NCBI GenBank assembly: GCA_039621445.1
Contig: CP154954.1
Coordinates: 11,960,716-12,024,715 of the forward strand
Direction of reading: 5' to 3'
Source: Euglena gracilis
Lineage: Eukaryota
Length of the DNA: 64,000 nt
Shown: piece by piece, positions 11,216 through 48,041 of the stretch
Position numbering within the stretch: the stretch's first letter is position 1
Layout: each line of letters opens with the position of its first letter
Notes under the pieces: generated by a model
What the model was told of the DNA's origin: nothing
Databases searched by the model: none
What the model saw: the letters and a program-made list of their open reading frames with translations, nothing else
Made by a program: the position numbers and the translations under genes

Positions 11216-12499
11216 TTATCCTATTATATTCGTTTCCGGCAATTGTTAGTTTTTTCTCTCTTTGTTCATAAGTGTCCTCATCGGGCCAGTGTATTACATT
11301 TAAAAAAAAACAGTGTATGAACATGAGTACGGGTTTTTTCTTTGCTTATTCCAATTAACAGGCTTGTACATATCACAGGTTCTCTTTCAACCAATTTGGT
11401 TTTCCTATTCTTGTTATTTTGCAAGGTGTCCCACAATCTATGTTTTAATTTGTGTTTCGTTTTTCCTTCTTTCTGTTTTTGCCATTTTGGACTGCCCTGA
11501 CCCATCTCAGCCATTATTGTACAGTTCTCCTTCGACGTCCCTGTCGCCTCCGACCATTCCATTGCTTTTGAGACCACCTACATTTCAGCCCCAATCCCTC
11601 ATCCAAAACCTTTCGGCGTGTACCAATCTGACAGCATCTCAGGTTTTTTTGTGGTGGTATTACTCATAATTGGTTATGATTACCACCTCTGCGGCCCAGT
11701 TATGTATATTTTCCCTGGACACCATCCTCTTTTTTCTGGCCTCACATTTTTCCCGGGGGCAGTTTTCACAAGTTATCAATTCTGTATTTGTGTTTGCGGT
11801 TGAGATTTCCCCTCCCATTCAGCCATCTGTTATTTACAGCGGATGTTGGTCCTGGGTTCCGTGATGGAGTCTCGTGAATGATGTTTGTCATAGTGCTTCG
11901 ATTTGGCCACCACACTCAACCCCTGTATTTTCCTCCCCCCGCTTACACGTTGGACCCGGACCCATCCGTCATGAACGTTTTGGTGGCTTGCTTTTCTTCA
12001 TTTCCTGCACCAGTTTCTGATTTTATCCTTTCTCCTTTGAAATGCTGGGCTCCCATAATTTGCACTGCGCACCACCATGAAACTTCGGCGTCCCATTTTT
12101 CGCCCCTTGATTTTCATGCTGCCTGCACTCTGGTTCTTCAACGCTCCCTTGCTCTAAAATTTCCCCTCACCTAACCCCCCCCCAAAGCTCCCTGCCACCC
12201 CTTTTTTTGGCCTGCCCTAACTTTTGTCCACGCTGTGGGCCTCCCCCATTGCATTCATCTTGTCATATGGCTCTCGCCCACGGGCTGGCTGTACTTGCTA
12301 CGTGTGCTTTTGTTTCCCTTATCTCCAACGCTCGGTTGCCTGGCGGGACCTTTTTTGAGAATCTTTCTCTTGGTCATGTTCAACCAGTTTTCCGTTCTCA
12401 TACTCAATGCCTGGCCCACCCCTCCCCAGGGCTCCGGGTCCCTTCGTGGGGATAGCTGTGGAAGTCGCCACCTCCTTCTCCTCACGGGAGCAGCCCTTC

Positions 12500-13130
12500 T
12501 GATGCAGTCTCTTTTCTTTCCATGAACTGTGGAGGTCGTGGATTTCTCCTCACCACCTTTTTTTCACTCCTTTTTTCTGTTGACCTCGATGCAGTTTTCT
12601 TGCAAGAAATGTGGGATGTTTCTTTTGCCTCTGTCCCGTCGCTTAAGTGTTTTTTTGATCATCAAGAGTACAGAACGTGGTCCTGGGCGGGGTATGGAGA
12701 TCTTTTTTTCATGGACACTTTGGGTTATGTAACTGTTTTGTATGATGGTTGGAATTGGTTTGCAACAGCTGTTCATAACCCCACCAGCCCCTCTTTTTAC
12801 TCATAAATGTTCATCTGGATACCCACCTCTCCCCTCACACCAAGGAGTTTGAGCTCTCTCATATTGTTGCTTTGTTACATCACATACAGCACTTCGTTTC
12901 CCTAGTATGTCGATTTCAACATTCCACGTCGCCCCAGGTCTTTGCTTCACAGACCGATGCAGGCCGGCAACTGTTTGGAGTCCCCCGGTCAATACACAAA
13001 CGTTGTTTCCCGTGCCGGTCGTCTATCTATCACTGAAATTGAATATATTTTAATTCCCTGGCAGTTCGGCCTCTCGTCTTTTCTCCGTCTTCCTGGTTTA
13101 AACAGTCATGTATGTTTAACAGGTTCTCTT
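12500..13130 (+). pseudogene. Decayed LINE (non-LTR retrotransposon) AP-endonuclease domain
   Basis: Across frames: FLSMNCGG (SWNVRG-like), DAVFLQEMW (DIIFLQET-like), NVHLD, VDFN (GDFN-like), TEIEYIL (RIDYI-like), NSH (SDH-like); many stops; no clear RT motif downstream. Confidence 0.5.
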
Positions 13131-16100
13131 CTTCTATCTCTTCCAGTTTCTTTTTCTCCTACCCGTCGACATGAGCATCATGCGTGCACTCCTCATCAAA
13201 GAAATTGTGTAGCCATTTTGTTGGGGATTTATTGGTTGTGGCTAAAGTGGCATTCTGTTCACCCTGATGCATGTATTTTTTTGTTTCTGCTATTTGGCTG
13301 ACTCTATTCTCATCCCAGCAAACCCCTGTCTTGTTCCATGTTCCTCCCCCTCTCGCTGCTTTTTGTCTCCCTCCTTTTTGGTTAACCCTGAGCTTTTGCA
13401 GAAGTAGTGGGAAGCACTGAAGCATAGACTCTTTATGCATGTTCTGCGCTTGCCCACTGATGTTCTTGGCTGTGTATATATTTTATCTCAACATCCCGAT
13501 TGCTGCGCCTCTCGTCAGGGAAGCCATATCAGCCATATCGGATCTTTTGCCTGAACCTTCTCATGTTCATCTTTCTAGAGCTGCTGCTCTCGTTTTTGCT
13601 GCCGCGGAGCTTCAAGATTACCATGGATCGTGCGGCATGTGTATGGACCTTCCCCGCCTCATTTCCTGTCAACCAATCTCCCATCTCCGAATGATGATCC
13701 AAGCTTTTCCACTTTTTTTTGCCTCCTGTCTCATGCTGAATGGTTTGAATGTTTCCCCGAACGGATTCGATTTCGCTGCTTGCATCAGAAATATCTGGTC
13801 TTTAATGAACCTCACCTCACCCATGCCCTTCAGCAGCTGCGGTCCGGTATGGCAGGTTTGATGACTTTGACGGCCTCCAAATTGCCTCTCCTTCCTGTCT
13901 GTGGTGTTGCTGCCTTGGTCCATCTTTCGGTGTTTGTTATCAGCCCCCCATGGCACACCACTCATGTTTTTGACCACCCCTTTTTCCTTTTTTTTGGATG
14001 GGGCTGTCCCTCTCTTTCTGTGTGTTGTGACCTCAATTTTCTGCATGGCTATTTTAAGACTCTTTTCAGCAGGAGTGTTTTGTTTGACGGACCCTTCTTC
14101 TGCAACAGACCGTCTCTCTCCCTCTTGGTGATGATGATGCAAATCATTTTTTGTGTCTGCAGCAAATTTATAGCAGCTCTTCACTGCCCGCGTCCATTTA
14201 CGCCACCCCCCATCCCGACTCTCTCAGAACATCTCCTCAGCAGCCCTGTCCTGTTTGTCACCACAGATGCTGGCCTCGCAGTCCCGGATGACCCTCTGAT
14301 GGTGTGTCACGCCGGTGTGCTGGTGTGGGGGTTGTTATTGTTTACGGTCACCAACAGGCGTTTTGGTTCTCATGGAGTCTTCCCACAATGTGTGCCTCTT
14401 CCATTGAATTGGAATGATTAGCTCGTTTTTGCGTATTGTTTTTACTTCGCGATGTCCCTGGAAAATTGTACCTCTTCTGTGGCAATGATACCGTGCAATT
14501 GCAAACGTTTTCTCAGCGTGTTAACTGCCCCGGTTCGTTGGACGCTCTTGCTCGTTTTTCTCTGTCTTCCCGTTTGTTTGCATTTAACAGAATTTCGCTC
14601 CCCTGCACAGCATGACTGTCGACACATCACTCTTTCAGCTCAATGGCAAGAGCGAGCCGACTGCTTGCCACTGAGGGTATACATTTTCCTTGTCGTTCTC
14701 CTCTTCCCGTTTGTACCTTCATGAGCTTCATCGGTTTCTTGCCCCCCCCCCCCCATACTGACATTTCGAGCAGGTGTTATTTTCAGACTCTCCAAGTTTT
14801 TTTTTTCTTTCAAATTTGAAATGTTTTTGTCTGCCGCCAAACATCCGCTTTGTTGAATCTTCTGTCCTGTTTACCTTATGGAGTTTCCTTTGATGCCCGT
14901 TGTTGGGAATCTGTTTGGTGATCCTGCTGTCCCTCTGCTTCTTCACCGTGTCGCCTTTGAGCTCCGCTGTTTTTGTGTCCTTCCTCTCGCTTTTTCTCAG
15001 TTCCAGAGTGACGTTTTTCTGATGTTTTCGCTGGTGCCCATCCTGGTCGCTGGATAGCTTGCCCAAGCCTCTATTCTCGGTTATGCCGTGCGCTCTCCGA
15101 TGTTCTCGCGCTGCTGCAGAATTCCTTGACGTGCCTGTGGTTGAGACACGCGACGTTGTTGCTCTTTTGCGTCACGCATCTCGTTTTTTCTTTCTCGTAT
15201 TAACTTCTGAATTTGATGTTTTCTAATTGCTTTGATGAATGCATCGTTTTATCGTGGTCTAGCTTTTTGGAATTACCACCCGGTTCCCTTTTCACATCCC
15301 CCTTTTGACACGTGTTAGCCTTTCCCTTTTGCGTGCTACGATCGATGTCTCATCATTGTGATTTTCGTTCTCCCTCTCCCATGTCCATGATTGTCAGTGA
15401 TGCCTCTTTTCTTCAAAATGGATGTCATTCAACCTCCATCCCACTTTGTTCACAACACAATTTAGCTTGGTTTGTTCACATCGATCTGTGTTGCCGTGTA
15501 AATTTTTCGCATTATCAGTTTGACATTCCTCTATGGAGTTTTGGTTTTTTCTTCCCTCTTTCATCTGGGTTCTTCCTTGCATTCAGCATGTGTGTTTCGC
15601 TTCTCATCCACCGCCAGCCACTCACTCTCCTTCGAGTTCTGCTTTTTGTGCCTGTTTGTCTCTTTGGTGTTTCCCCTTCCCTTCTATTCCTTCATCTTTG
15701 TGCGAGGCCTCAGTGGGGCCCACTACTTCGTGTGCCCCGAGAACTCCGGGGAACTCAACCAACCAACCAACCAACCCGTGCTTAGGCGCCTTTTTCTGAG
15801 TTTTTCTTTGGTCGTTCGACCGTTAATCCTATTCTGCTACCAAGTGTACGTCCCACCCCGGCTTTTCTACTTATGCTTTCCTCCTGAAAAGTCCGTGGGG
15901 GGAGTAACAGTAAAATTTGCTTCCCTTTTCCCTTTTCAATGCAAAGCACAAGAGCAGAAGAATTGGTGGGACCGCAGTCCCTTATATGAAAGTGACTATT
16001 GCTCTTTCGAGCTTTGTAAAAGAAAGAAATAAAACTTGTATTCAAATGGGACTTCGACCTCAGAATTCAAAAGAGAATTGCAAAGCACCAAACCCAATAA

Positions 16101-16399
16101 CCTTGAATTAGGAACCAGTTGCTTTTGCTAAGCTTTTGGCAGCTCTGAGATTCTCTCTTTGTCTTATGGTTTAAACATGCCACTGTGTACAGCCCGGCCG
16201 TAGCCAGCTTGTAGGCCGTAGCCCATTGTATCTGGTACACAGTGCCATGGCGGAATGGCTGCCTGGTACACAACCCCCCGCTGTGATCTGAGCCGTCGAA
16301 ATAATTGTGGTGAATTCCCCTTTTTCAACGAAATCTCCTGCAACGTTCCTAATAGAGGCTGTCTTTTGGCATTTGGAAGATCCAATCCACGACTTGCAC

Positions 16400-19300
16400 G
16401 AGAAAATGTCGTGATTGGAGGGTGCCTTGTGGGGGCTCCAACCTCTTCTAGGGGCCCTCGTCAGCAAAGTGCAGGAGCTGCAAGCTTGGCAAGAAGCCAA
16501 GGCCCCCACCGAAGCCAAGGCCTCAACGGAAGCCAGGGGCCCAATCCAAGCCAAGGCCCTAACACCTCTGACAGAAGCCATGCCCTCAGCCCTGCCGACT
16601 TGTTCAGAAGTATGGTGCAGCCATAAGCAGCAGCAACGGCGGTGCATGATGGTGCAGCCATAAGCACCAGCAACGGCGGTGGCCACATGTGTGGAGTTGG
16701 AAAGTGAAATTATAAATTTGAGGTAAGAAATGGCAGCTTGCGAATCCAGCGCAAGGTGGATTTGCGACCTTCGCCGTTACAAGATTTGGGGAAGGGAAAG
16801 TGATTCGGGTCAAATTACAGGTGCAGCTTTTTCGAATAACCTGAAAGGGTGGTTCTTCAACTCAAAACCCTAGTACAAGGCTGGTTCCACCGAAACATAT
16901 TGTTCAACCCTAACAGGAACCTTCCGGTTTCATGCCCATGAACACTCCCTTTTTTTTTAGCACCTAGTCGAAACAATTTTGAGAGCATTGGTCCCCAAAC
17001 CCAGGTCAAGGTCATGGTGCAAGGTGTTCCGGGATTTATGGCAATGACATCATTGAAACCCATTATGCAAGATGTTGGACGACAACCTTGATTTTCTGGG
17101 TACGTGCAAGATGCCCCCGAGCTTGAAAGAGAATGGGAGGAGGTGGAAAGAATTTTTCAGGAAACTTCCCCCTACGATCTCTCCGAATTTGCCACTTTGA
17201 TGCAATTTCGCAGCTGCCTCGACGAGGCAACATCCCTAAAAATGAAACCCGTGTGAATAGGGAAAGGAATATGACCTACAAAAGTTTTCGTGAAGAATTT
17301 GGAAGAGAGTTTGGGGTGGGTACCATCAAACAAAGTCGGGCTTATTGGCATCGGGTTTCACTCAAATGCTCGGGTCTCCCAGCGCAAAACTCATCATTTT
17401 GGATTGTGTGAAATTAGCAGCGGAATTTGTGGCCAAGAGGGACCGGGTGGAAGCACGAACAGATGCCGGGGGAATTAGGCAAAAAAACATTGGAAAACAT
17501 TTTCTGGTCCACAAAAAACACCTGTGCCTTGCGTTTATGGGACGGAATTGAGGTACCCCAGGCGCCCCCGTCGAGGAGTTGAAGTGGGTGGGTAATGACC
17601 CCCAGGGGTTGTCATGTTAAAGGGGGGGGGGATAGGGAATTAGCAAAAACTGCTGACGACGATTTTCGAAAATACGGCTAATATATGCGAGAATTAATAA
17701 AAATCACTGATACCGAGTAGGTCACTGAAATCTTCTGTGTCAAAGACCTGCAAAAAAGGTTATGCTTTTTATGGTTTAAACCAACCCAAAATGAGGAATG
17801 GAGACACTCGGTGATACTATTTTTGCAAACCAAAGCAGGAAAATAAGATAGATCCAAAAAACCACAGTGGCATGGAAACCCTTCGTCGAGGACGCTTTTC
17901 AACCATGTGGTTTTATTGAAAAAAAATCTCGCACCTGGGAATTCACACATTGTAATGGCAAGTCATTTTCTGCAAAATGCCCCCATTTTTGTATAAAAAA
18001 GGTGATGGTTGAGCCGGCAAAAAAGGAGGTACAAACTGTGGGTTCGGTTTCCCTCGACCGGAATCTGATGGGTGAACCGTTTCTGCAGGAGTTGGTGCGG
18101 GTGATTGCACACTGACTGTGGAGGAACCACGAGGCGGTGCGTAGTTGTTTGCTGAACGGGATCAATTCTTAGCTTTGGATGGGTTCCTCGTGGATAACCA
18201 GAAGGTTTCTGCAACCTGTCATGAAAACCAAATGACGGGTGATGAAAGTTTTGAATTTGTCACCTCATTCCTTCGGACGGAGAAGGAGTATGTTGCCACT
18301 CGGAATGCATATGGGTTGTATGAAAAGACAAAATCCTCCTCCCCAGCAAACATGCGAGTTTTTGTTGATGACCCTCCTAAGAACGTGGTGGGGAAAGTAC
18401 CAACAAAAATATTCCGACCATAGGAAAATCATCTTGGAAGCCGAAGGCTCAATCCTACCCGTAGAACGGGGATGGTAAACCATCCTCCCATGGAAGGGGC
18501 CCAGGTGCAAAATCTCCATCGTCCAAGGGAAGTGCTTCACTTGCAAAAAGGCGTGCAGGGATTTCGTCGAGGACTTCAGAAAATGCTCGTTTGCGCGAAA
18601 GGCTTGTTCGGGGGTTTGGTCTCCAAAGTCCGGCGAAAGCGGGCCGAAGGGGGTGAAAGAAACTCCTCCCATCGCCCAATCCCCTTAGTAGGGGGGTCAG
18701 AGCGATTCGGGAGTCCGTTCTGCAGATGCAAATTTCCCATCTTTGGGGTGAGGGGTGTTTTGCCTCCTACAACCCCTCCTTGTTTGACACGTTTGATAAC
18801 TCTCTACGTGATCGAGGCACTGTCGGAGGCCTCTTAATCAAAACCACCCGCACCATTGTCAGATGAAGCATCGCCTGAGGAAGAGGAGGCAGTGGGGAAT
18901 ATTTTAAAGGAAAAAAAATTTGACGCCACTCGAAAATTCGGATGGTGAAACCATCCGGGAGGTTTTGCGTGAGTGACGGTTAATGTCTTTGAAGGCGGGG
19001 TGGGTGAAGGAGGTCCATTTGCATCTATTAACCAAACTTGATGTCTTGAGAGGTTCCCAGCAGTTTCGGGCCTTGGTCGACACGGGGCAGAAGTTTGCTT
19101 GGTGAAAAGAAATTTGCTGCCCCGTGCTTTTTTCGCTCCATCGGCAAAACCCGTCAACTTGGTTGCTGCCAACAACCAAAGGGTGAAGGGCGGGTGGGAT
19201 CAGACCTTGGTAGAATTGAAATTTTCAGGGGTGGTGCAAGACACCAAAAATGTGGTTGTTTTCTAAATTCTTACGCTTTTATATGAGGCCGACGTGGAGG

Positions 19301-20746
19301 AAGCTGTGATCCTGATACGTGTGGTTGGCTGAAAGCAAATTGAATGTGGTGCCAAGGAGACATGAGATTCAAGGTGTTCCCGAAGGTTGTTCGGTTTGGA
19401 TTTGCGGTGTTCTCACATGGTGGGGGGCCATCGTAGACTTCATTCGAACCCGTCCCCCCCGTGTCCATTCAGGCGGTCCACAAATTTCGTCCCAAAGCCT
19501 TGTATATTTTTTTCTTGCAGAGGGAGTGTCGGGAAGGTATTACTGGACCACGGATACGAAGTGATATCCCTGGATGTGGATGATAGGTTGTAACCCACCC
19601 CACGTGTGGATATTTTAACCAGTGGTTACCAGAAAGATTTTTCTCCGGGTGAATTTGAAATTGTAACCGCATGCCTCCCGCTGTACCGAGTTCAGTCTGG
19701 TCTTAAGCCGTGGGTCGAGACGGTTGGAGCCGGCTCTGGAATTGGTGCGAGGAACACTTGAGATTATCAAGTTTTTGATACCCAAGGTTTGGTGGTTGGA
19801 GACCCTCCGAACAAGAATTCTTGCCCGGCGTGCTCTTTAGGCGAAGTTCCAGTTCTGGATGCGAACCATTGCCAATATGAAAGGTGGGGATATCAAAAAA
19901 CCACCACATTTTTTTGAGTCAGCATTTGCTTTCACTGCGCAATGTCGTTTGTGGGGGAAGGATCCCAACAATCCGAACGAGCTTCGAGCACATAAAGCCA
20001 AGCTTGGTGGGGGGGGGGGCAAATGGGAGTGCAAAAAAGGAGCTCACCTATCGTAATTCCTTACCGATTGGTGGAACATCTGTGTGTTTTTACCTCCAAC
20101 AGCAAGGAAATGGTTTTGGGGGGGACCATGTTTTGGACTCACCTCGAGCTTTGACGACGGACGAGGAAGCGGAGACCAAAAATGAGAATTTAGTGGATTC
20201 AATGCCCGAATGTCCAGATGATTTTCTTGGGGAGGGTGATTCTCCGACTTACGGATTGGAAATCCGCCAAGCGGTCGAGATGGCGAAAAAAAATGCGACT
20301 TTCGGCCAGACCGGTGCCCATTTGTAAATGGAGGATGAGGGGGAGAATGTCATCCGTGAAGTGGCAAAACACATGGTTTGGGCGACAGCCCGTATGAATT
20401 TTGTGAAGGGTGCGATTGATATGAGGTGGGAGACCAATGAAACCCTCGAGGAAGTGCTGAAACAGGATATTGTTGAACACTTTCGGGATTCATCACTTTC
20501 TGGTATTTGCCTTCGGTTTGCGGGAGGGTGCCACGCCCGTTAGTCAAAAGCCCTATCACATGACGGGTGAGAGACGGGAGTCTCATCAACGTCTTGTGGA
20601 TGACGCCTTGACAATGGGGAAAGTGGCGCCCGGTTTGCGCCCGTGGAATACACCATCTTTTCGGTACCCAAGAAACCCCAAAGAAAGTATCGCTTTGTAC
20701 AGGATTTGCCACCCCAAAATCTTTTAACCTTGAAAGTTGGACATCC
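16400..20746 (+). mobile_element. Heavily decayed second Gypsy family (gag, PR, C5-MTase, start of RT), cut at the 5' LTR of copy 2; left boundary approximate
   Basis: Gag-like RERNMTYKSFREEFGREFG (~17260) and NQMTGDESFEFVTSFLRTE (~18230) match the main family gag; protease FRALVDTG..VCLVKRNLLP (~19060); C5-MTase ~19490-19920; RT start PVSQKPYHMTGERRES...WNTPSF (~20540-20660). Confidence 0.8.
19490..19920 (+). pseudogene. C5-cytosine methyltransferase relic of the second Gypsy family
   Basis: GSVGKVLLDHGYEVISLDVD, DFSPGEFEIVTACLP-CTEFSLVL, LEIIKFLIPKVWWLET, HCQYERWGYQK align to the copy 1 and copy 2 C5 domain across frameshifts. Confidence 0.8.
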
Positions 20747-21216
20747 TGTGAGTCAGGGGTGCTGAGTGCCCAAAACAACATAACCTAACCCAACCCAACC
20801 TGATGACTCTGCAGTTAGGATTAGGAAAATCTTATTAGGAATTTCAATTGCTGACCCCATTGTCCCTGCACAGGGCTCTGTCTTGTTTTTGTCTGTTTCA
20901 AGTTCAAGAATTGAAAATATCTTGGTGGCAATTATCATTCTTACCTGGACTCTACGTACTTTTGGTTTTGGATCGGTGTGGTGTATTTGCTGAATTGCTT
21001 GTATTGTGCTGTTGGACTTGCGGATTTTTTTCAAAGGAAAGCCAACCAACCCACCTGTTTTCATTAAAAAGACCCACCAAAACAAAAGAAAATGCAATTT
21101 TTGAAACAAGCCGCGAGGGGAATTGAAATCACCCTGGGCAGGGTAAAAGATCCTACGCAACGGGGTGCCGGCCCCGAGGAACTGGAAACTCCAGGGCGGG
21201 TACCACGGATACAACA
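20747..21216 (+). repeat. 5' LTR of copy 2
   Basis: TGTGAGTCAGG...GATACAACA, direct repeat of 33052-33521. Confidence 0.95.
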
Positions 21217-21228
21217 TGGTCGCAGAGG
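21217..21228 (+). promoter_or_regulatory. Primer binding site, probably initiator tRNA-Met
   Basis: TGGTCGCAGAGG directly after the LTR end; one mismatch to TGGTAGCAGAGG, the complement of the 3' end of animal-type tRNAiMet. Confidence 0.7.
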
Positions 21229-21331
21229 TAGACTGCCCAATTTTGATTCCCCTCCAACGTGCGGCTACGAACAACAAGCTGAAAAACGACAAGAAACTGC
21301 AAAAACTGACGCTGACATGCCAGCTGCCGAA

Positions 21332-21550
21332 ACCGCCATCGCTAGGGTGGTGGAGCCGGCGGAGGGCAACTCAGCCATGTACCAAACTCTGGATGTGCCA
21401 ACTGCCTTAACCGCCATCGCTAGGGTGGTGGAGCAGGCGGATGGTTTCCCAGCCATGAACCAAACACTGGAAATGCCAGCTGCCTTAACCGCCATCGTTA
21501 GGGTGGTGGAGCCGGCAGATGGTTTTGCCGCCATGTACCAATCACTGGAC
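21332..21550 (+). repeat. About three in-frame 78-bp (26-aa) tandem repeats at the gag N-terminus
   Basis: ACCGCCATCG(C/T)TAGGGTGGTGGAG at 21332, 21410, 21488; peptide TAIARVVEPAxGxxAMYQTLD. Confidence 0.9.
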
Positions 21551-24500
21551 AGCAACAGGTGGACTGAAACTGAACAAGACGGCACAGACATTACAGTGCC
21601 ACGGACATGCAATGACAGCCCACGTGTCATTGCCATGGTGCACATGGACCAGGACGACACCGAACAGACCGGTCCAGCACCAGATTACACAGAACTGGAC
21701 GAAAACAACGAACCGTACTTCGACGAACAGGTGTTTGCACCACAAAACTGGTACCAACAGCCAGAAACGGACACTCAGAACAACCAAAACTGGCAAACCG
21801 CAACAGCACAGCAACCAGGAACCCCGAGTTTTGCACTGGTGGCGGTACGACAGAGCCCGGAACAACCAGACCGCCTCCAGGGTGAAACTGAAACTTCGTA
21901 CCAGGAACCTTCGTACAGCTCGTACGAGATTCCACAGCCGGAACCACAGAACCAGAACACTGACTGGGACTGGTGGTCGAACTTTGCGCACGAAACTGGA
22001 CAGCTGACCCAGGAATTTCAACAGTTCAGACACAAAACTGAACGGACGAACCAGCAAACGGCAGAAACTCTGCAGCAGCTGCAACAAACAACGACGGAGT
22101 GGGTCAGCGAACTGCACGCCACAGTGAACAGACAGGGTGAAGCACTCATGACAGAAATAAACGGCAGACACGAAGAACTGACAACAGTGCTGGCAACAAC
22201 ACAAGCAAACATGGAACAGGTGACAGTCAACCAGAACAGGCAATACCAGGAACATTTCAACGGAATGTCACAGCAGATCACAGAAATCAGGGAAATGTCT
22301 GGCTCACTGGGTGAAAAACTCAGGGAATTTCACAGTTTTCTGCAGATGGCAGGTGGAAACGCACAGAACCAGGGTGAACATCTGGTTGGTTTACTACACC
22401 GACAGCGAGAAAACGAAAAAACAACTGCAGAACTGCAACAGAGATTGGCTGTGGCAGAAGAACGGGTCGCAGGAATCACAGGCGGAGTCCAAACGGTGAA
22501 CAGCAAAGTGGACGAAACTGTGGCAACAGTGTCCAGAAAAGTTGAAAACCTAAGAGGCGAAATCAGCAGTGTGGTGGAAAGAATTCAGAAGGACATGGGC
22601 AGTGAAATCGAAAATCTGGCAGGACGGGTTCAGCAGCAGGAAACAAAAACGACAACAACCGTTCAAAATTGTGATTACCTGCACAAAAAACTGGTCGAAC
22701 TGCAGAAAATCACAGATCAGCAGCAGCAGATTACACAGCTGAACGAGGAAATCGGCAGACTGAAACGACAGGTGGAAACTCTGACCTCCAACGAAGAAAA
22801 ACACAAACAACGCACTGAACGCCTGAACCTGGAGGTCGGCAACCTGGGTCACAGGGTGGACGAAACAGCCCAAACGTCTCAAAAACTGCTGGGTGAACTA
22901 CAAAAAGGGACCATTAAAACAGGAACACATGACACGTCTGAACATGCCAAATGGCTGGAAATGACATCTGCCATTGGCTCAATGACAACCAGGGTCGGTC
23001 AACTGGAAACAAAACTGGCTGGTCTGACAACAAAAACTGCAGAACGGGAAACACATGACAACGGCATCTGGCAGCATTTACATTCGCTGACCACGGAACT
23101 GCAAACACAGCAGAAACGGTGGACAGAACAGCTGGTGACCCTGGACAGAAAAATCAGTACTGTGACAAAAACGACTGAAAACCTGACTGAAAACTGGAAA
23201 GGCAAAACACCCAGCAAATCACAACCCCCAGCCCTAGCCTGGCTGAAATACCCAAACTTTTTGAAAATCTTTACATTTCCTCTCGCCCAGCCTGCACAGG
23301 GGCCTTCGGGCCAGAGTCAGGGGCCAGCCCCCTGGCCAGTGGGCCTCCCTCGAGGATCCAGGCTGGACAGCCAGGGGCAGCGACAACGGCCCAACGGACT
23401 GAACAACCCCGCCAGGGGGCAGACAGGGCCGCGGGTCAACGGGGATCGGGGACCCCACAACCCCAGAACCAGCCCCCGGCAGCCCTGAGGGGCCAACCCA
23501 CAGGACAACACGGGACGGGGACCCCAGAACCCCACACCTGGCAGACGGGGATGGGGACCCCACAACCCCTGGCCCAGCCACGGCCAGCCCTGAGGGGCCA
23601 GCCCGCAGGAAACCAAGGGAAGGGGACCCCAGAACCCCAGGACTGTCAAACGGGGACGGGGACCCCACAACCCCTGACAGGTATGTTCAGCCAGAGCAGC
23701 CAGCAGTGGGGGGACGAAACACCACACCCAAAAATGGAAGGAGGAGCTGCAGCACTGGGGACCGTTAACTCGGCTTCCCTGGTGGGGCAGCTCATCCAAC
23801 AAGAACTGAAAACTGCCTTGACACCGTTAATTGCCCAACTGACTCGACAAACAGAACGACCGACTGCAGTCCCGACCAGCCCAGCACTACTTACGACAAA
23901 CCCGACAAGCCCAGCACCACAGCCAACCCAGCCGACTCAACAGCCAGTGACGACACAACAAAACCCACAGTCCCGGACTCGGGGCTTGTTCATATGGGCA
24001 GACGAAACTGAAACTCAGAACACAGCCACAACAACCTGGGTGGGACCCCAGATGGGGTCTACCCAAACTGCCATCCACCACATAGGAGAGGAAACAGTGG
24101 TGGCACCCGTGGCAACGGCCCCGGCAGCATCCTTCGGGCTGCTGCTGGGTCCAGTGGGCGCGGCAATGACAAAAGACCTGGTGAGACCAACACTGCAGGG
24201 GAATTTCGCAGATTTTGCCGTGAAATTTCCGATGTACCTGCAACGACTTCAGCCGGTCAGGGGTCCCTGACCGATGACCTGAAACTGTCACTGCTGGAGG
24301 GCAGCCTGGACAGTGCCAGCAAACTGGAACTACAACGCAGACAGGAACGCGGTGAGAAAATAAAATACCAGGAATTTTGGAACTGGATGTGCCAGAAATA
24401 CGGTGGAGACACACAATCAGCCATCAAAGACGAACTGAAAAACCTGAGACCAAAAACGGAAGGAAAACTGACACTGGAAGCGTGGAGGGAGTTTGAGGCC

Positions 24501-25544
24501 CATTTCAAACTCCTCTACAGCAGGCTGGAAAATCCATCAGAGGAAGACGCTTACAACCTGGTGGCTGAAAAAATGCCTGAAACGCAACGCAGAAGCTGCA
24601 TCAGGGAACAGGACCGCAGAAATCAGGACAGACCGACACTGAAACTGAAAGGGGTCACGAACATTACAAACGTCCCAGATGCAATGACGGAAGACGTTCG
24701 TGACCTGGTGGCAGCAACTGTGGGTACAGGTGAGAATTTTCAGGTGGCACGAGACGGACAAAACTTCAGGATCCAACTGCACAGCAGAAGAGCTGCTGAA
24801 CTGCTCCTGATGAAAAACGGTTCAACGCTGCTGACTGGACACAAGCCACAATTCACACAGGTACAGGCCAAACTGACATTGGACGAACTGTTCCAACGGG
24901 TGGAAACCGAACTCAGGTGCCAACAACAGTCAGACTCCCTAGGTAGGGGGTACAACGGCTGGCAGAACCAACCTCGTGAAAACAGATCACGGTCGATGGA
25001 CCGCAGGGGTTACGTCAGGGAAGTCAAGGAGGAGGAGAAAACAAAATCCAGAAGTCGGACACCACCTTCCAGATCCCGACCCAACTCCCCTGGACCTCGA
25101 ACCCCAACACCTGAAAAACCCAGGCCCCCTTCTCCACGCCAGCAGGTGCCCATGGCAGTTTCAGAACAGCCTGGCCAGGGACGGTACACCAACTGGTCAG
25201 ACTGGGGACAGAACGACTGGGGCAAAGGCAAAGGAAAGGGGAAAGGTCAAAACTGGGGTTCAACCCAAAACTGGAACCAGAACCAGAACTGGAATCAGAA
25301 TTACGGCAAAGGCTACGATTCAGGAAAGGGATACAACTCTGGGAAAGGATACGATTCTGGGAAGGGGAGCGGGAAAGGAAAAGGCAAAGGGCAGCCACAG
25401 CCACAGCCAGCAGCAACGAAAACAGAACCACAGACTCAGCAAACCAACTCACAGGAGCCAGCCAACCAGCCACAGGGACAGCCAAAGGCAGAAGCATCTT
25501 CCAGCAACCGCTGGCAGCCAGTTCAAAACGCAGAACGGAAGTGA

Positions 25545-27137
25545 AGGGGCTGCGGCTTGAGGGTAGGGGACGAGAGGGGCGACTCTCTGCAGGCACAACC
25601 GAAACAACAAAACAAAACAAGGGAACCAGGTCCAGAGCCGCAGCAGTCATACACACTGGGTAAGGGAGGTAAGAAAAAACCCCAAAAGAAAAACATCCTG
25701 ACAAAAAAACGACTCCACAGCCCAGAACCGAAACGGGAACAGGTCAGCTGCAGGTTCGGCAGAGCAGCTTCACGGTGGGTGTCTGAAAACTACCACGTGA
25801 AGGAAGAAAAAATGACAGAAATTCTCTCACACTTCGGGGTCCAGCCCCAGCTGGATGCCTTTGCAACGGAAAAAAACAAAAGATTCCCGCAATGGTTCGG
25901 ATCTGGCAGCCCTGAGGGCACAGACGCCTTTGAAAAAAACTGGCACGGAAAACTGCTGTGGATGAACCCCCCATTCAGCAAAATTTCACAGGTGGTGAAA
26001 AAAATTCAAACAGACGAGGCCCATGCACTCCTCATGGTACCCAGATGGGTTCACAGAAAATGGTACGGAGAAATCAAAAAACTGGCAGTGATGTCAATGT
26101 TCATCCCAGCGGGAACAAAACTGTTCGGACAGGGTGACAAGAACTGCAGGAATACACCGTGGCATGTGGAAGTGTTTTTGGTATGCGGACACAAAACACG
26201 GTGCAAGTACCTACCAGGTTTCCACAAACACTTCACCCCCCTACATCCGACATCCAAGGTGAGGTTCGGCACAGCCCACGAGTACCCGCCAGTGGAGGAC
26301 GAGGTGGAGGGTGGTGAACAAAAAACCGACCTGGGGACAGAAAAACCACAGAAACACATCAGAAAACTGCAGGAGGCAGCCACAGCGACACCAGAACGGG
26401 CCACAGCAGAAAAACCAAAACCAAAAATGCTGGACCTGTTCTGTGGAACAAAATCGGTCAGCAAGGTGTATGAAAAAATGGGTTTCCAGGTGGTGACGGT
26501 GGATTCAGACCCCAGGTGGAAAGCGGATTACCAGGTGGACGTGCTGGACTGGGATTTCAGAAAACATTTCAAACCTGGTGAATTCCACACGGTGGTGTGT
26601 GGGGTTCCCTGCACAGAATTCAGCATTGCCCTGACGACAAGACCCAGAAACCTGGAAAAGGGAGACAGCCTTGCAAAGAAAGCCCTGGAAATTGTGGAAT
26701 TTCTGCAGCCGCAGAAATGGTGGTTGGAAAACCCAAGGTACGGATACCTGGGAAAACGAGATTACATGAAACCGTACCCGTACATTGACGTGGATTACTG
26801 TCAATACACAGACTGGGGCTACAAAAAACCAACACGAATCTGGGGCAGCCCCGACATCCTGCAGGTACCAGCCAAACGGTGTGACGGGAAAACGTGCAAG
26901 AACCTGGACCCAAACGGTGGAGGTCACCTGGTGAAACTCAGCAACAAACACAACATTCCAGCCTTCAAGAAATTCAGGATCCCAGAACAACTGATTCAGG
27001 ACCTGGCGGGGTTCCACGAACGGCTACGGCAAACCAGCCAAGCCCAGGCCGCGCAGCAACAACCGCTGCAGCAGCCCAGCCCTGCCCAGACTGCACGACA
27101 AAACATGCTCTCACAGTCCAGCCCAGCCCAGAACTGA
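25545..27137 (+). CDS. Dam-like N6-adenine MTase plus C5-cytosine MTase, copy 2
   Basis: Same motifs as copy 1 (NPPF; LDLFCG, PC, ENP), all intact; same frame as gag after TGA 25542-25544. Confidence 0.9.
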   Translation, partial: RGCGLRVGDERGDSLQAQPKQQNKTREPGPEPQQSYTLGKGGKKKPQKKNILTKKRLHSPEPKREQVSCRFGRAASRWVSENYHVKEEKMTEILSHFGVQPQLDAFATEKNKRFPQWFGSGSPEGTDAFEKNWHGKLLWMNPPFSKISQVVKKIQTDEAHALLMVPRWVHRKWYGEIKKLAVMSMFIPAGTKLFGQGDKNCRNTPWHVEVFLVCGHKTRCKYLPGFHKHFTPLHPTSKVRFGTAHEYPPVEDEVEGGEQKTDLGTEKPQKHIRKLQEAATATPERATAEKPKPKMLDLFCGTKSVSKVYEKMGFQVVTVDSDPRWKADYQVDVLDWDFRKHFKPGEFHTVVCGVPCTEFSIALTTRPRNLEKGDSLAKKALEIVEFLQPQKWWLENPRYGYLGKRDYMKPYPYIDVDYCQYTDWGYKKPTRIWGSPDILQVPAKRCDGKTCKNLDPNGGGHLVKLSNKHNIPAFKKFRIPEQLIQDLAGFHERLRQTSQAQAAQQQPLQQPSPAQTARQNMLSQSSPAQN

Positions 27138-29660
27138 CAGGTCGACAGCCAAACTCAGATTCAACTGACAAAACAGAACCAGACCAAAACATTCGGCTTC
27201 CAAAACGACTGTGTGAACCGGTGTCCAAACTCCTGCTGGGGCAGGTCATCAGCAGAAAGAAGGCTAAACAACTCCTCATCGAAGTCCGTGCTGTGTTGCC
27301 GGACGGCAAAAAAATGTTCCTACAGGCCCTGATCGACACGGGAGCACAGGCAAACCTGGTGAAAAAGAACCTGATTCCCCAACAAAATTTCAGACGTTCA
27401 CAAAAACCCTTGGCACTGATCACAGCGGACGGAACAAGGATGGAAGGAGGACTACACGAAGTTACACTGGAACTGCAGTTTTCATCACGGGTGCACAACA
27501 CGGACAGAACAAGGGAATGGTCCACCATTGGAACATTCCATGACGCCGACATCCAAGTGGATGCCATCCTCGGGTATCCGTGGATGGAACAACACCAAGT
27601 AAGGGTTTTTCCACACCTACAATCACTGGCCCTCATAGGTGAACCACTGCGGCTGCTGTCCAGTTGGCACCAGCTGAAGGAACAAAAGCACAGGGAACGG
27701 AAAATACACCAACTCCAGAAAAATATTTCGGCAGTGCGGGCAATGAATTTGCAGATCCCTGCTGAAGCGGGCCAGGACGAGGAAAAACTGTTTGAAGACG
27801 AAACAACACTGGAAACACTGGCAAAACAACTTCAGAAATCGGCAAATAAATCTGACAGGGTTCACGGTGTTGTGGTGGTGCCAGAAGGACAGGAAACACA
27901 AGGCGAAAGGGTGGCTGAATTGGTGAAAAAACTGCGGCAGGACTATGAAGGAGTGGTCTTGCGAGACAAAATTTACCCAGACCCCCCAGAACGCGGACCA
28001 CTGGGTTATGGGAAAATCGAACTGAAGCCTGGAACAGTGGCGAAAAAGCAAAGACCCATCCACATGACAGGAGAACGCCGACAGGCACTCATCGACATGG
28101 TGGACGAATGGGTTAGGGACCTGAAAGACGCCTTCCACCAGGTGCCACTGAGAACAGAGTCCAGACCCTACACCTGCTGCAGCACACCTAAGGGAACAAA
28201 ACAGTGGAGAGTGGTGGTCATGGGAATGAAAAATGGTGTACCGATTTTCCAGAGGGTGATCGAGTACAGCCTGGAGGAGGTACAGGACATTGCAAACCCC
28301 TACGTGGACGACATCATCGTAGGAACCATGTGGCAGGGAACTGAAGACAAAACCCTCGAACAACACGACAAGGACATCAGAAGGGTGATGGAGGCACTGA
28401 AAAAACAGCAGCACGTGGCAGACATCAAGAAATGCAAATTTTTTGTGAAAGAGGTTGACTCTGTGGACACGTGCTGGGTGGTGGACAACGGAAACCCGCA
28501 CCTGGGAAACTGATGGCCTTGGAAAGATGGGAGGAACCGAAAACGGTCACAGCCCTACGGGCATTCCTGGGATTCACAAACTATTATGCCTCATACATCC
28601 CAGGGTATGCGGAATTGGCTGCAGACCTGATGGAAAAACTGAAGGTAAAAAAAGGACAGGGGAAGAAAGGAAGCCTGACACCTGTGTTTTTCGGTGAAAA
28701 GGAACAAACAGCCTTCCAGACCATCAAAGAAAAACTGCTCGGAAGCCTGAAACTGCAAACGGTGAACCCGGACAAACCATTCATACTCAGGGTGGATGCA
28801 AGTGGCAGAGCCGTAGGTGCGGCTCTGGAACAATTTGCGGAGGACACAGCAGAAAAGCCAGACCCAACAACAGCCATGACCAAAAAAACAGTACCCGTAG
28901 GTTTCTGTTCACGAAAACTGACACCTGGGCAGGTTCGCTCGTGGTCTCCTAGGGAGAAGGAGACCTACGCAGTGATCGTGGCTCTGCAAAAATGGGCTTC
29001 CTGGATAGGAATGCAACCGGTACTGGTGTTGACGGACCACAAGTCCATTGAGGCATGGGCAACGGAGGCGCTGGACACCCCCAGTGGACCAGCTGGACGT
29101 AGGGCTAGGTGGCACGAACTGCTTTCGCGGTTCGACAAATAACCGTTGCATACGTACCAGGCAAAGACAACACGGTCGCCGATGCCTTGAGTAGGTGGGC
29201 CTACCCCGCCTCACAGGCATTCGCCGACGTGAGTATCCACGGGAGTGAGGAGGACGACCGACTCATGAAAGAAATCATCAAACAGGAGGAAAAGGAACAG
29301 AAAACGTGTATGGTGATCAACGTGGCAGACCTGACACAGGCACAAAAACAACTTCAAGAACCCGTCACTGTGGCCGTCACAACAAGGGGGGGAGCCAAAA
29401 CGGGTGAAGATTCGCCCACAGTGCCTGGTTCAACGGAAAACGGTGACACCCCTCAAAAAATTTCAAACCCACCTCAAAAACCAGCAAAAACGACAAAGAA
29501 ATGGGTTGTGAAGGAAACGACTGTGGTGGAACCAAGCAAAAAACTGCCAGGAGCAACCCCAAGGGAGACCACGGATGAGGCAGGAAACCTTAACCCGACC
29601 AGACCAACACAAAAACAAAACCCCAGAAAATTCAAACACGGCCGAGGGACCATCCACTGA
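27060..29660 (+). pseudogene. pol: Pol (PR, RT, RNase H), copy 2, with internal deletion and frameshifts
   Basis: ALIDTGA; VRDLK|DAFHQ junction lacks 64 codons; YVDD; frameshifts near 28458, 29138, 29590. Confidence 0.9.
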
Positions 29661-33040: not shown

Positions 33041-33051
33041 GGGAAGGGGAG
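33041..33051 (+). promoter_or_regulatory. Polypurine tract, copy 2
   Basis: GGGAAGGGGAG before the 3' LTR. Confidence 0.85.
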
Positions 33052-33521
33052 TGTGAGTCAGGGGTGCTGTGTGCCCAAAACAACATAACCTAACCCAACC
33101 CAACCTGATGACTCTGCAGTTAGGATTAGGAAAATCTTATTAGGAATTTGAATTGCTGACCCCATTGTCCCTGCACAGGGCTCTGTCTTGTTTTTGTCTG
33201 TTTCAAGTTCAAGAATTGAAAATATCTTGGTGGCAATTATCATTCTTACCTGGACTCTACGTACTTTTGGTTTTGGATCGGTGTGGTGTATTTGCTGAAT
33301 TGCTTGTATTGTGCTGTTGGACTTGTGGATTTTTTTCAAAGGAAAGCCAACCAACCTACCTGTTTTCATTAAAAAGACCCACCAAAACAAAAGAAAATGC
33401 AATTTTTGAAACAAGCCGCGAGGGGAATTGAAATCACCCTGGGCAGGGTAAAAGATCCTACGCAACGGGGTGCCGGCCCCGAGGAACTGGAAACTCCAGG
33501 GCGGGTACCACGGATACAACA
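33052..33521 (+). repeat. 3' LTR of copy 2
   Basis: Direct repeat of 20747-21216, TG...CA termini. Confidence 0.95.
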
Positions 33522-35230: not shown

Positions 35231-35520
35231 CATGGGTCATGATGGCCATCATGGGGCCTGATGGCCATCATGGGTCATGATGGCCATCATGGGGCCTGAT
35301 GGCCATCATGGGTCGTGATGGCCATCATGGGTCATGATGGGCATCATGGGTCGTGATGGCCATCATTGGCCATGATTGGCATCATGGGTCATGATGGGCA
35401 TCATTGGTCATGATGGGCGTCATGGGGCATGATGGGCATCATTGGTCATGATGGCCATCATGGGTCATGATGGCCATCATGGGTCATGATGGGCATCATG
35501 GGTCATGCTGGCCATCATGG
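35231..35520. repeat. 19-bp minisatellite (about 15 units), consensus GATGGCCATCATGGGTCAT
   Basis: GATGGCCATC recurs at 35241, 35260, 35279 and onward; adjacent units form the palindrome CATGATGGCCATCATG. Confidence 0.9.
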
Positions 35521-36494: not shown

Positions 36495-36563
36495 GGCGAG
36501 TGGCATAGTGGTACAGCGTTTGTCTGTCAACCGTGTGGTCGTGGGTTCGATTCCCACCTCGTC
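36495..36563 (+). pseudogene. tRNA-like relic or tRNA-derived SINE head (GTC at the anticodon position)
   Basis: A-box TGGCATAGTGG, T-arm GTGGG-TTCGATT-CCCAC, acceptor GGCGAG/CTCGTC, T6 terminator; anticodon stem does not pair. Confidence 0.6.
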
Positions 36564-37265: not shown

Positions 37266-37284
37266 TCTGTCTGTATAAGGGCGA

Positions 37285-43761: not shown

Positions 43762-43834
43762 TTCTATGGAAGAAATGGACTGCAAAAATTCGTTTGCAAA
43801 GGAGGTGCAAAATTCTTGAAACGGAACAAATTGC

Positions 43835-47971: not shown

Positions 47972-48041
47972 CCTTTTCCTCATATTTTTGCCTTAATGTA
48001 TAATATTAAAAGAATTTTCTCCTACAAATATGGTTAAAAAG

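What the first reader, a model, noticed from the sequence alone, without database searches (positions are those of the whole stretch)
19050..20746. Second Gypsy family has the same C5-MTase in a different slot (after the protease) and no visible N6-MTase
Seen: the relic reads gag, PR (ALVDTG ~19070), C5-MTase (~19490-19920), RT start, whereas the young family reads gag, N6, C5, PR, RT. Gag, PR, C5 and RT fragments all resemble the young family but are very diverged. Inference: C5-MTase carriage is an old, lineage-wide trait with domain shuffling or repeated capture, pointing to a whole clade of methylating LTR elements. None of this is visible in the ORF track because of frameshifts.
Basis: seen in the sequence. 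Interest (0 to 1): 0.8.

Follow-up and report, generated by a model that had tools for sequence, protein, structure and literature searches.

The report
Decayed retrotransposon with differently placed cytosine methylase
A broken fragment of a jumping gene carries a DNA cytosine methylase between its protease and its reverse transcriptase, the opposite order to its intact neighbour, and database relatives show this order marks a whole second branch of such methylase-carrying elements.

Summary
Window 19052-20746 (+) reads protease (ALVDTG at 19070-19087), C5 DNA methyltransferase (19510-20079), linker, then the first part of reverse transcriptase. It is cut at 20746 by the LTR of young copy 2. 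The stretch is a pseudogene: 10 frameshifts and 3 in-frame stops against an intact 366-aa database protein of the same family (P0091, 79% identity).

The PR-C5-RT order is not a local rearrangement. 39 database proteins share it. In PR and RT trees one branch separates "PR before C5" from "C5 before PR" (the young family's order), and the C5 tree allows the same single split (p-AU 0.55). This favours one old C5 acquisition followed by one swap, not repeated capture.

No N6 (DAM) methylase is detectable in 11217-20746 with three family HMMs, nor in 16000-19100 with frameshift-tolerant alignment. However, the 3' part is missing and the 5' extent is unproven. 11 of 15 relatives with more than 100 residues before PR carry DAM there. 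"Family without N6" therefore stays open.

Gag is not confirmed.

The kind is known: EpiLTRs (2026 preprint) and Gypsy-Dnmt3 (2018). The slot split looks like a new variant.

The parts
16000..19051 (+). Upstream stretch with no demonstrable coding homology. It may be diverged gag or unrelated DNA. No DAM is present.
   Evidence: No hit from 61+29 relatives upstream of 18980. DAM HMMs are negative. Frameshift-tolerant alignments score at shuffled level. Pfam is negative.
19052..19096 (+). Protease N-terminal segment with the catalytic ALVDTG (19070-19087). It lies in a different frame from the PR core.
   Evidence: ORF 18977-19105. The PR HMM aligns 'FRALVDTG' to 'vLvDTGAev'. On its own this is weak (i-E 0.4); its position is collinear with the PR core.
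19084..19314 (+). Protease core, with one in-frame stop at 19264.
   Evidence: tblastn to the young PR gives E 3e-11 and 35% identity. The family PR HMM gives i-E 1e-18. Aligned to P0091.
19316..19509 (+). Protease C-terminal part and the PR-C5 linker, read across two further frameshifts.
   Evidence: Frameshift-aware alignment to P0091 residues 74-140.
19510..20079 (+). C5 cytosine DNA methyltransferase domain, dead. Pieces: 19510-19671, 19673-19834, 19837-19914, 19985-20020, 20041-20079. Motif I reads FSCRGS, motif IV SRCTEFS, motif VI WWLETL.
   Evidence: C5 HMM gives 2e-22 and 1.4e-17 in two frames. Composite and motif comparison. Stops at 19591 and 19838.
20080..20517 (+). C5-to-RT linker. 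Its length matches that of relatives without DAM.
   Evidence: Collinear tblastn with P0063 (287-629), P0068 (621-900) and P0071 (313-584) up to 20744. About 195 aa separate the C5 end from the RVT_1 start, against 176-221 aa in P0063-P0072 and 376 aa in P0062, which holds DAM there.
20518..20746 (+). N-terminal part of reverse transcriptase, cut off at 20746.
   Evidence: tblastn: young RT 40% over 48 aa. P0065 47% over 53 aa and 65% over 29 aa. P0075 52% over 48 aa.
20747..21217 (+). 5' LTR of young copy 2, which ends the relic.
   Evidence: Direct repeats 20747-21217 and 33052-33522 at 92-99% identity. The sequence at the junction starts TGTGAG.
25545..27137 (+). Comparison: the young family ORF with DAM (aa 77-215) then C5 (aa 294-486).
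   Evidence: Pfam PF05869 and PF00145. Family HMMs.
26885..28513 (+). Comparison: the young family PR (aa 129-235) then RT.
   Evidence: Pfam. PR HMM.

Best explanation
Window 19052-20746 is a decayed, truncated copy of a Ty3/Gypsy-type LTR retrotransposon family distinct from the young one. In this family the pol polyprotein reads protease, C5 DNA methyltransferase, about 190 aa of linker, reverse transcriptase. In full-length relatives RNase H and integrase follow.

This order is inherited. It defines one of two deep sister lineages of C5-MTase-bearing elements. The young family (DAM-C5-PR-RT) belongs to the other lineage.

The most economical history (inferred) is one acquisition of a compact (about 200 aa) C5-MTase by the common ancestor, followed by one exchange of the PR and C5 positions.

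In living members the enzyme would be made as part of pol. Its catalytic residues are almost invariant, so it probably methylates cytosines. The target, whether the element's cDNA or chromatin at insertion sites, is inferred from the literature and not shown here.

This particular copy is dead. It has 10 frameshifts and 3 stops, has lost an invariant motif I glycine, and has lost everything beyond the RT start. The retained part has no DAM. Its nearest long relatives (P0063-P0067) have none anywhere in pol either.
For: - Domain calls and order in the relic.
- Same-family intact ORF: P0091 at 79% identity (276 of 350 aligned residues), with PR and C5 in one frame.
- 39 proteins of the P0001-P0096 pool have PR before C5, and 19-22 have C5 before PR.
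- Full polyproteins reading PR-C5-RT-RH(-IN): P0063, P0064, P0065, P0067, P0071, P0072.
- PR tree: 58 rows, the two orders need 1 change, SH-aLRT 90, 0 of 500 shuffles as low.
- RT tree: 45 rows (23 vs 15 labelled, 7 unlabelled), 1 change, SH-aLRT 100.
- C5 tree: 89 rows (39 vs 22 labelled, 28 unlabelled), 3 changes, with well-supported branches (SH-aLRT at least 95) forcing only 1. P0091 sits in a clade with support 97 that holds 32 rows, 29 of them PR-before-C5.
- AU test: the tree with the 39 rows held together is 3.16 lnL better than the free quick tree, p-AU 0.55.
- The relic's own C5 composite falls in the PR-before-C5 clade with support 96.
- Catalytic motifs: the PC dipeptide is kept in 22 of 22 and 38 of 39 proteins, the Cys in all, and the motif VI Glu in all.
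- AlphaFold model of P0091: pLDDT 85.9. Best PDB fold matches are DIM-2, DNMT3A/B, MET1 and DNMT1, at E 3e-7 to 2e-6.
Against: - All relatives were found by similarity to C5 or PR-C5, so C5-less relatives that could break the 'single acquisition' picture were never sampled.
- The trees are 'quick' searches with SH-aLRT support only. The PR alignment has 107 columns, and its key branch has support 90, below the 95 level used above for well-supported branches.
- The root is unknown, so the ancestral order cannot be told.
- The AU group was named after a tree had been seen.
- The relic shows no LTR, gag, RNase H, IN or chromodomain of its own.
- Pfam itself does not detect any domain in the relic. 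The calls rest on HMMs I built from database relatives.
- P0091 and the relic have RC in place of the PC dipeptide (the only such case among 61 proteins). This family's enzyme may have been impaired even when intact.
- No methylation activity was tested.
Confidence: 0.85

Rival explanations
1. The relic's family does carry a DAM (N6) methylase, most likely upstream of PR. This copy merely lost it by 5' truncation, deletion or replacement of the upstream part. On this reading the relic is a second EpiLTR arrangement (DAM-PR-C5-RT), not a C5-only element.
For: - Of the 15 PR-before-C5 proteins whose PR starts beyond residue 100, 11 have DAM upstream: P0012, P0068, P0069, P0070, P0073, P0075, P0077, P0078, P0079, P0081, P0083.
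- Nothing upstream of 18980 in the window is recognisably part of the element, so a 5' truncation just before PR is possible.
- In the C5 tree the rows nearest to P0091 by path are P0095 and P0096, both PR-C5-DAM.
Against: - 4 of those 15 (P0026, P0043, P0062, P0074) have no DAM upstream.
- The relic's closest long relatives, P0063-P0067, show no DAM in pol ORFs of 754-1816 aa. Their ORFs start at most 43 aa before PR.
- The slot between C5 and RT is present in the relic and is too short for a DAM: about 195 aa against 376 aa in P0062.
- The DAM tree disagrees with the RT and PR trees, so DAM seems to come and go.
Confidence: 0.4
2. The PR-C5 order is a local accident of this copy, caused by rearrangement, nested insertion of one element into another, or misassembly.
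For: - The copy is heavily damaged and sits among nested insertions.
- Young copy 2 has no matching target-site duplication: CATCC on the left, TCTAG on the right.
Against: - P0091, an uninterrupted ORF from elsewhere, has the same junction at 79% identity.
- 39 database proteins share the order.
- The relic is collinear with whole polyproteins from PR to the RT start.
Confidence: 0.02
3. The two lineages captured the C5-MTase independently (repeated capture), each in its own slot.
For: - Retrotransposons have captured DNMTs repeatedly (de Mendoza 2018, PMC5890265, sections 6, 7 and passages of 9 read).
- The same C5 type also occurs outside retroelements: P0057, labelled Symbiodinium microadriaticum, carries it beside a Pox_A32-like domain. 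A common outside donor therefore exists.
- No C5-less outgroup was sampled.
Against: - The C5 tree is compatible with the same single split as the PR and RT trees.
- Both lineages share the same compact domain, including the CxxxxC pair and the KPTR motif.
- Two captures from the same donor type that then mirror RT history is less economical than one capture.
Confidence: 0.1

Closest known systems
EpiLTRs: LTR retrotransposons with DAM + DNMT + chromodomain in Euglena gracilis and Cymbomonas tetramitiformis (Fernandez-Moreno et al., bioRxiv 10.64898/2026.05.21.726589; abstract, sections 6, 7, 8, 11 and search passages read; figures and supplements not seen)
   Same: - The young family in the window has exactly this domain set: DAM, C5, PR, RT, RNase H, IN, chromodomain.
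- The relic's C5 is of the same type as the young family's C5: 41% identity over 142 HMM columns, and both fall in one C5 tree.
- The preprint stresses modular assembly and differing domain organisations.
   Different: - The relic shows PR-C5-RT with no DAM in what survives. Its chromodomain cannot be tested.
- The text I read places the DNMT at the 3' end of pol in Cymbomonas and gives no order for Euglena.
- It does not describe a split into PR-before-C5 and C5-before-PR lineages, nor DAM-less DNMT elements. Its screen started from DAM.
- That the window comes from Euglena is my guess, not a result.
KnitGypsy-Dnmt3 of Klebsormidium nitens (de Mendoza et al. 2018, PMC5890265; passages of section 9 read)
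   Same: A Gypsy-type LTR element with a cytosine DNMT inside the pol polyprotein, with conserved catalytic residues.
   Different: - There the DNMT is of the Dnmt3 type, and the element has DIRS-like repeat structure.
- Here the C5 domain is a compact domain of about 200 aa. Pfam matches cover only PF00145 positions about 2-118.
- According to the 2026 preprint the EpiLTR DNMT is sister to DNMT4. I did not test DNMT class.
SymbioLINE-Dnmt and SymbioDIRS-Dnmt3 of Symbiodinium (same 2018 paper, sections 6 and 7 read)
   Same: - Retrotransposon-borne C5-MTases kept under purifying selection.
- Two SymbioDIRS structures differ in domain order, which is a precedent for slot variation.
   Different: Those are LINE and DIRS backbones with tyrosine recombinase or endonuclease, not PR-RT-RH-IN Gypsy elements.
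DAM-carrying DIRS elements (cited in both papers)
   Same: One lies in the same window on the minus strand: DAM ORF 42889-44460, tyrosine recombinase 39132-40022, RT 37575-38690. Its DAM is homologous to the LTR-borne DAMs.
   Different: It has no C5-MTase, no PR and no integrase. It is not part of the relic.

Membership tests
Ty3/Gypsy-type LTR retrotransposon | Aspartic protease with a D-T/S-G active site | tested here: met
   ALVDTG at 19070-19087. PR HMM i-E 1e-18 at 19084-19314.
Ty3/Gypsy-type LTR retrotransposon | Reverse transcriptase followed by RNase H, then integrase (IN after RT) | tested here: inconclusive
   Only the RT start survives (20518-20746). The order RT-RH-IN is seen in relatives P0064, P0067, P0071, P0075, not in the relic.
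Ty3/Gypsy-type LTR retrotransposon | Flanking long terminal repeats and a target-site duplication | tested here: not met
   No repeat pair belongs to the relic. Its 3' part is absent after 33522.
Ty3/Gypsy-type LTR retrotransposon | Gag upstream of pol | tested here: not met
   No significant similarity in 16000-19060.
C5 cytosine DNA methyltransferase (PF00145-type) | Sequence homology to the family | tested here: met
   Family HMM 2e-22 and 1.4e-17. Intact relatives reach Pfam PF00145 at 20-34 bits against a cut-off of 22. Pfam does not hit the relic itself.
C5 cytosine DNA methyltransferase (PF00145-type) | Motif I FxGxG, motif IV PC with the catalytic Cys, motif VI ENV-like Glu (motif names recalled) | tested here: not met
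   In the relic an invariant motif I Gly is replaced by Cys, motif IV reads RC (Cys kept, Pro lost), and motif VI reads ETL. In relatives the motifs are almost invariant.
C5 cytosine DNA methyltransferase (PF00145-type) | DNMT fold | tested here: met
   Tested on P0091, not on the relic. pLDDT 85.9. Foldseek top hits are DIM-2, DNMT3A/B, MET1 and DNMT1, at E 3e-7 to 2e-6.
C5 cytosine DNA methyltransferase (PF00145-type) | Open reading frame and methylating activity | tested here: not met
   The frame is broken: 10 frameshifts and 3 stops. Activity cannot be tested with these tools.
EpiLTR (DAM + DNMT + chromodomain LTR element, 2026 preprint) | DAM domain in the element | tested here: not met
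   No DAM in the six frames of 11217-20746, with a positive control. The relic is incomplete, so this speaks for the fragment only. The young family meets it.
EpiLTR (DAM + DNMT + chromodomain LTR element, 2026 preprint) | DNMT domain in the element | tested here: met
EpiLTR (DAM + DNMT + chromodomain LTR element, 2026 preprint) | Chromodomain at the end of integrase | not testable with these tools
   The 3' part of the relic is missing. Among PR-before-C5 relatives, P0083 and P0088 have a chromodomain. P0064, P0067 and P0075 show none in Pfam.
DNMT class (DNMT3, DNMT4 and others) | Placement in a tree with reference eukaryotic DNMT classes | not tested
   No reference set was at hand. The preprint reports EpiLTR DNMTs as sister to DNMT4 (section 8 read).

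The most novel reading that the evidence does not exclude
The compact C5-MTase is the old, stable accessory gene of a large clade of chromovirus-like LTR elements. That clade split once into a PR-before-C5 and a C5-before-PR lineage. The DAM adenine methylase is a labile add-on that has been inserted, moved, exchanged between the two lineages, or lost many times. Seven DAM arrangements were seen, and the DAM tree disagrees with the RT and PR trees. The relic would then stand for a cytosine-only branch (PR-C5-RT, like P0063-P0067). That would show 5mC writing alone is enough to keep such elements going, and that 'EpiLTRs' are a subset of a wider DNMT-LTR clade missed by DAM-based screens.
Probability: 0.35. 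Interest if true: 0.6.

Novelty: new variant of a known kind. Interest (0 to 1): 0.45.

Why it matters
Retrotransposons that write DNA methylation on their own behalf are rare, and their purpose is unclear.

If the C5-MTase has stayed in one clade through a PR/C5 swap and through repeated gain and loss of DAM, with catalytic residues almost invariant, then cytosine methylation is probably central to these elements' life cycle.

The two slots also give natural variants for experiments. In one, C5 is released upstream of PR. In the other, C5 sits between PR and RT. These can be used to ask how the enzyme is released from pol and what it methylates.

For annotation, DAM-based or Pfam-based screens will miss such copies. 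Pfam found nothing in this relic.

Tried and rejected
- Pfam on frames of 11217-20746 with stops read as X: no domain.
- Young gag against the relic: nothing below E 0.45.
- CCHC zinc-knuckle scan: none in the young gag or the relic. A looser pattern, derived post hoc, matched only P0043 and window 18533. It did not beat shuffles and was dropped as evidence for gag.
- Continuation of the relic after copy 2 (33523-50000): no PR, C5 or RT hit. The flanks of copy 2 do not form a target-site duplication. The rest of the relic is therefore gone, most simply through recombination or deletion between young copies (inference).
- phmmer of P0091 and a profile of alignment A1 against PDB sequences: only weak hits, generic SAM-MTases at 1e-4 and DNMT1 at 0.008-0.05. 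The fold search was needed instead.
Source names and contig context of these proteins stayed unknown.
- The search for homologous proteins 'longer' with P0091: no long protein above 50% identity. No full-length member of the relic's own family was found.
- CpG observed/expected: 0.57-0.79 in all parts of the window, 0.79 in the relic and 0.59 in copy 2. This gives no useful contrast.
- The genome-contig scan (bacteria and archaea only) was not used, because it cannot hold this eukaryotic element.
- Complex prediction and the atlas search were not used.
Full report
**Layout of the window**

- Direct repeats and ORFs show two copies of a young LTR element.
  - Copy 1 runs from the window start to about 11216.
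  - Copy 2 spans 20747-33522, with LTRs of about 471 bp at 20747-21217 and 33052-33522.
- Pfam on the young ORFs gives, in one ORF (25545-27137), a Dam N6-adenine methylase (PF05869) followed by a C5 DNA methylase (PF00145). The next ORF holds protease and RVT_1. RNase H, integrase and a chromodomain follow.

**The relic**

- tblastn of the young proteins against 11217-20746 gave three collinear hits:
  - PR at 19084-19314 (E 3e-11, 35% over 77 aa);
  - C5 at 19474-19914 (E 5e-13);
  - the region just before and into RT at 20518-20661 (E 4e-6, 40% over 48 aa).
- ALVDTG lies at 19070-19087 in a neighbouring frame.
- HMMs built from database relatives score as follows:
  - PR 1e-18;
  - C5 2e-22 in one frame and 1.4e-17 in another. 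The middle of the domain (SRCTEFS...WWLETL) is in the second frame.
- Pfam itself sees nothing in frames with stops read as X.
- An HMM-column composite of the C5 pieces is 41% identical to the young C5 over 142 columns. It is about 50% identical to the best of the first 61 database proteins.

**A same-family intact ORF**

- An exhaustive phmmer search with the frame-1 read of 19042-20745 found 193 proteins at E up to 1e-3.
- The best hit, P0091 (366 aa, E 2e-70), is an uninterrupted ORF running from just after the DTG through the whole C5 domain.
- A frameshift-aware alignment of P0091 to 19099-20167 has 350 aligned residues, of which 276 are identical (79%). It shows 10 frameshifts, 3 in-frame stops (19264, 19591, 19838) and 13 missing residues.
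- The relic is thus a dead copy of a family whose PR-C5 junction exists intact elsewhere.

**Is the order typical of a lineage?**

- The young MT ORF found 61 database proteins. P0046 found 29 longer ones, and P0091 found 41 longer ones.
- Domain maps with the family HMMs and Pfam show many arrangements:
  - DAM-C5-PR (the young type);
  - C5-DAM-PR;
  - C5-PR-DAM;
  - DAM-PR-C5;
  - PR-DAM-C5;
  - PR-C5-DAM-RT;
  - PR-C5-RT-RH-DAM;
  - PR-C5-RT and C5-PR-RT with no DAM seen.
- Full polyproteins such as P0064 (1772 aa) and P0067 (1816 aa) read PR-C5-RT-RH-IN.
- The relic is collinear with such proteins from PR to its cut end. Examples are P0068 residues 346-629 and 621-900, and P0063 residues 46-320 and 287-629.

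**Trees**

All trees are quick IQ-TREE searches with SH-aLRT support only. Labels come from HMM coordinates.

| Tree | Rows | Columns | Labelled rows (PR-before-C5 / C5-before-PR) | Changes needed | Support or test |
|---|---|---|---|---|---|
| PR | 58 (rows under 75 filled columns dropped) | 107 | 39 / 19 | 1 (one branch) | SH-aLRT 90; shuffles mean 16.3; 0 of 500 as low |
| RT | 45 (rows under 70% filled dropped) | 239 | 23 / 15 (7 unlabelled) | 1 (one branch) | SH-aLRT 100 |
| C5 | 89 (rows under 140 filled columns dropped; P0091 stands in for the relic) | 198 | 39 / 22 (28 unlabelled) | 3; branches with support of at least 95 force only 1 | AU test, below |

- In the AU test on the C5 tree, holding the 39 rows together gives a tree 3.16 lnL better than the free search (p-AU 0.55). 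That group was named after a tree had been seen.
- The relic's own composite row has a long branch. It falls inside the PR-before-C5 side with support 96.
- The relic's RT start is also closer to that lineage: 43-52% identity to P0075, P0080, P0081 and P0065, against 31-40% to P0084, P0086, P0087 and the young family.
- Together this favours one acquisition of C5 and one PR/C5 swap, inherited since. The root is unknown, and C5-less relatives were never sampled.

**The N6 question**

- Three DAM HMMs (17 members, 32 members, and the 11 DAM-PR-C5 proteins) find nothing in any frame of 11217-20746. The same HMMs hit the minus-strand DAM at about 43936-44301 at 1e-17 to 3e-21.
- Frameshifts come about every 110 bp and could hide a domain from single-frame HMMs. 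I therefore also ran a frameshift-tolerant alignment of seven DAM domains against 16000-19100. Scores were 33-48, against 33-44 for shuffled queries and 108-134 for the positive control.
- The C5-to-RT gap (about 195 aa) matches DAM-less relatives (176-221 aa). It does not match P0062, which has DAM there (376 aa).
- The surviving piece therefore has no DAM. Three limits apply:
  - everything 3' of 20746 is missing, and one relative (P0080) has DAM after RNase H;
  - nothing upstream of 18980 can be shown to belong to the element;
  - 11 of the 15 PR-before-C5 proteins with more than 100 residues before PR carry DAM there.
- On the other side, the nearest long relatives (P0063-P0067) show none in pol.
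- The DAM tree (34 rows; rows under 85 filled columns dropped) disagrees with the RT/PR split:
  - a clade with support 99 joins PR-DAM-C5 with C5-DAM-PR proteins;
  - P0062 groups with the young-type DAMs (support 89).
- DAM therefore looks labile. I put 'family without N6' at roughly even odds.

**Is it a real C5-MTase?**

- Across 61 labelled proteins the motif IV Cys, the motif VI Glu and the KPTR motif are invariant or nearly so.
- The PC dipeptide is kept in 60 of 61. The exception is P0091, which has RC, as does the relic.
- Motif VI reads ENP in all 22 C5-before-PR proteins. In PR-before-C5 proteins it reads ETP in 29 of 39 and ENP in 10.
- The relic has further hits at invariant sites: a motif I Gly replaced by Cys, and the Pro after ET replaced by Leu.
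- An AlphaFold model of P0091 (alignment A1 of 36 sequences; pLDDT 85.9, pTM 0.68) matches DIM-2, DNMT3A/B, MET1 and DNMT1 best in the PDB, at E 3e-7 to 2e-6 and probability 1.00.
- Sequence-only PDB searches were weak.
- Function in living members is inferred from conservation and fold. No activity was tested.

**Gag**

- No support.

**Why the relic stops**

- Copy 2's flanks (CATCC and TCTAG) are not a duplication.
- No PR, C5 or RT similarity follows 33522.
- The simplest reading (inference) is that recombination or deletion between young copies removed the rest.

**Literature**

- de Mendoza et al. 2018 (PMC5890265; introduction, sections 6 and 7, and passages of 9 and 11 read) described SymbioLINE-Dnmt, SymbioDIRS-Dnmt3 and KnitGypsy-Dnmt3.
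- A May 2026 preprint (10.64898/2026.05.21.726589; abstract, sections 6, 7, 8, 11 and search passages read; figures and supplements not seen) reports the following:
  - it describes DAM-LTRs and 'EpiLTRs' with DAM, DNMT and chromodomain in Euglena gracilis and Cymbomonas tetramitiformis;
  - it places the DNMT module as sister to DNMT4.
- The young family fits that description. That the window is from Euglena is my guess.
- Three full-text searches found no paper that describes:
  - a PR-before-C5 versus C5-before-PR split;
  - DAM-less DNMT Gypsy elements of this type.
- The preprint's unseen figures may show such orders.
- A 2019 opinion paper (PMC6338049, passages read) only cites the 2018 work.

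**Verdict**

- The observed order and the lack of a visible DAM are real.
- The order is inherited and marks a second lineage.
- The claim that the family lacks N6 is open.
- The gag claim fails.
- The kind is already described. The slot split and the contrast between a stable C5 and a labile DAM are a modest extension of it.

Noticed in passing
window 37575-44460, minus strand: A DIRS-like element. ORF 42889-44460 carries a Dam domain (Pfam 7e-7; family HMM 3e-21). ORF 39132-40022 carries a tyrosine recombinase (Phage_integrase). ORF 37575-38690 carries RVT_1. Its DAM is homologous to the LTR-borne DAMs, at up to 32% identity.
   Followed up: partly
window 20742-20746 and 33522-33527: Young copy 2 has no matching target-site duplication (CATCC against TCTAG), and the relic's RT does not resume after it. 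This suggests recombination or deletion between young copies rather than a simple insertion.
   Followed up: partly
window about 50275-63032: Array of five to six tandem units of about 2.4-2.6 kb, 61-100% identical to each reference copy. ORFs of about 258 aa in the array (50709-51485, 58188-58967) have no Pfam match.
   Followed up: no
window 12000-16000: Strong strand asymmetry (AT skew -0.36 to -0.39, GC skew -0.16 to -0.20). The plus strand is T- and C-rich. No protein similarity on either strand.
   Followed up: partly
database protein P0086 (1965 aa): A polyprotein reading C5, PR, a histone-mRNA stem-loop binding domain (SLBP_RNA_bind, Pfam 6e-23), DAM, RT, RNase H, IN, chromodomain. This is a further accessory domain in this clade.
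   Followed up: no
database protein P0057 (385 aa, named by NCBI as Symbiodinium microadriaticum putative cytosine-5 methyltransferase, partial): The same C5 type lies next to a Pox_A32-like packaging ATPase match (Pfam 2.5e-4, below the cut-off). This hints that the C5 module also occurs in virus-like elements.
   Followed up: no
database proteins P0012 and P0118 (named by NCBI as Genlisea aurea hypothetical proteins, partial): DAM-PR-C5 proteins of this clade are filed under a carnivorous plant. Whether they are plant genes or come from organisms in the sample was not examined.
   Followed up: no
C5 alignment columns 101-103: Motif VI reads ENP in all 22 C5-before-PR proteins. In PR-before-C5 proteins it reads ETP in 29 of 39 and ENP in 10. 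This is a lineage-linked change next to the catalytic glutamate.
   Followed up: partly
window 16493-16563: An 18-bp tandem repeat of 3.9 copies (unit GAAGCCAAGGCCCCAACC), inside a 134-aa open frame upstream of the relic.
   Followed up: no
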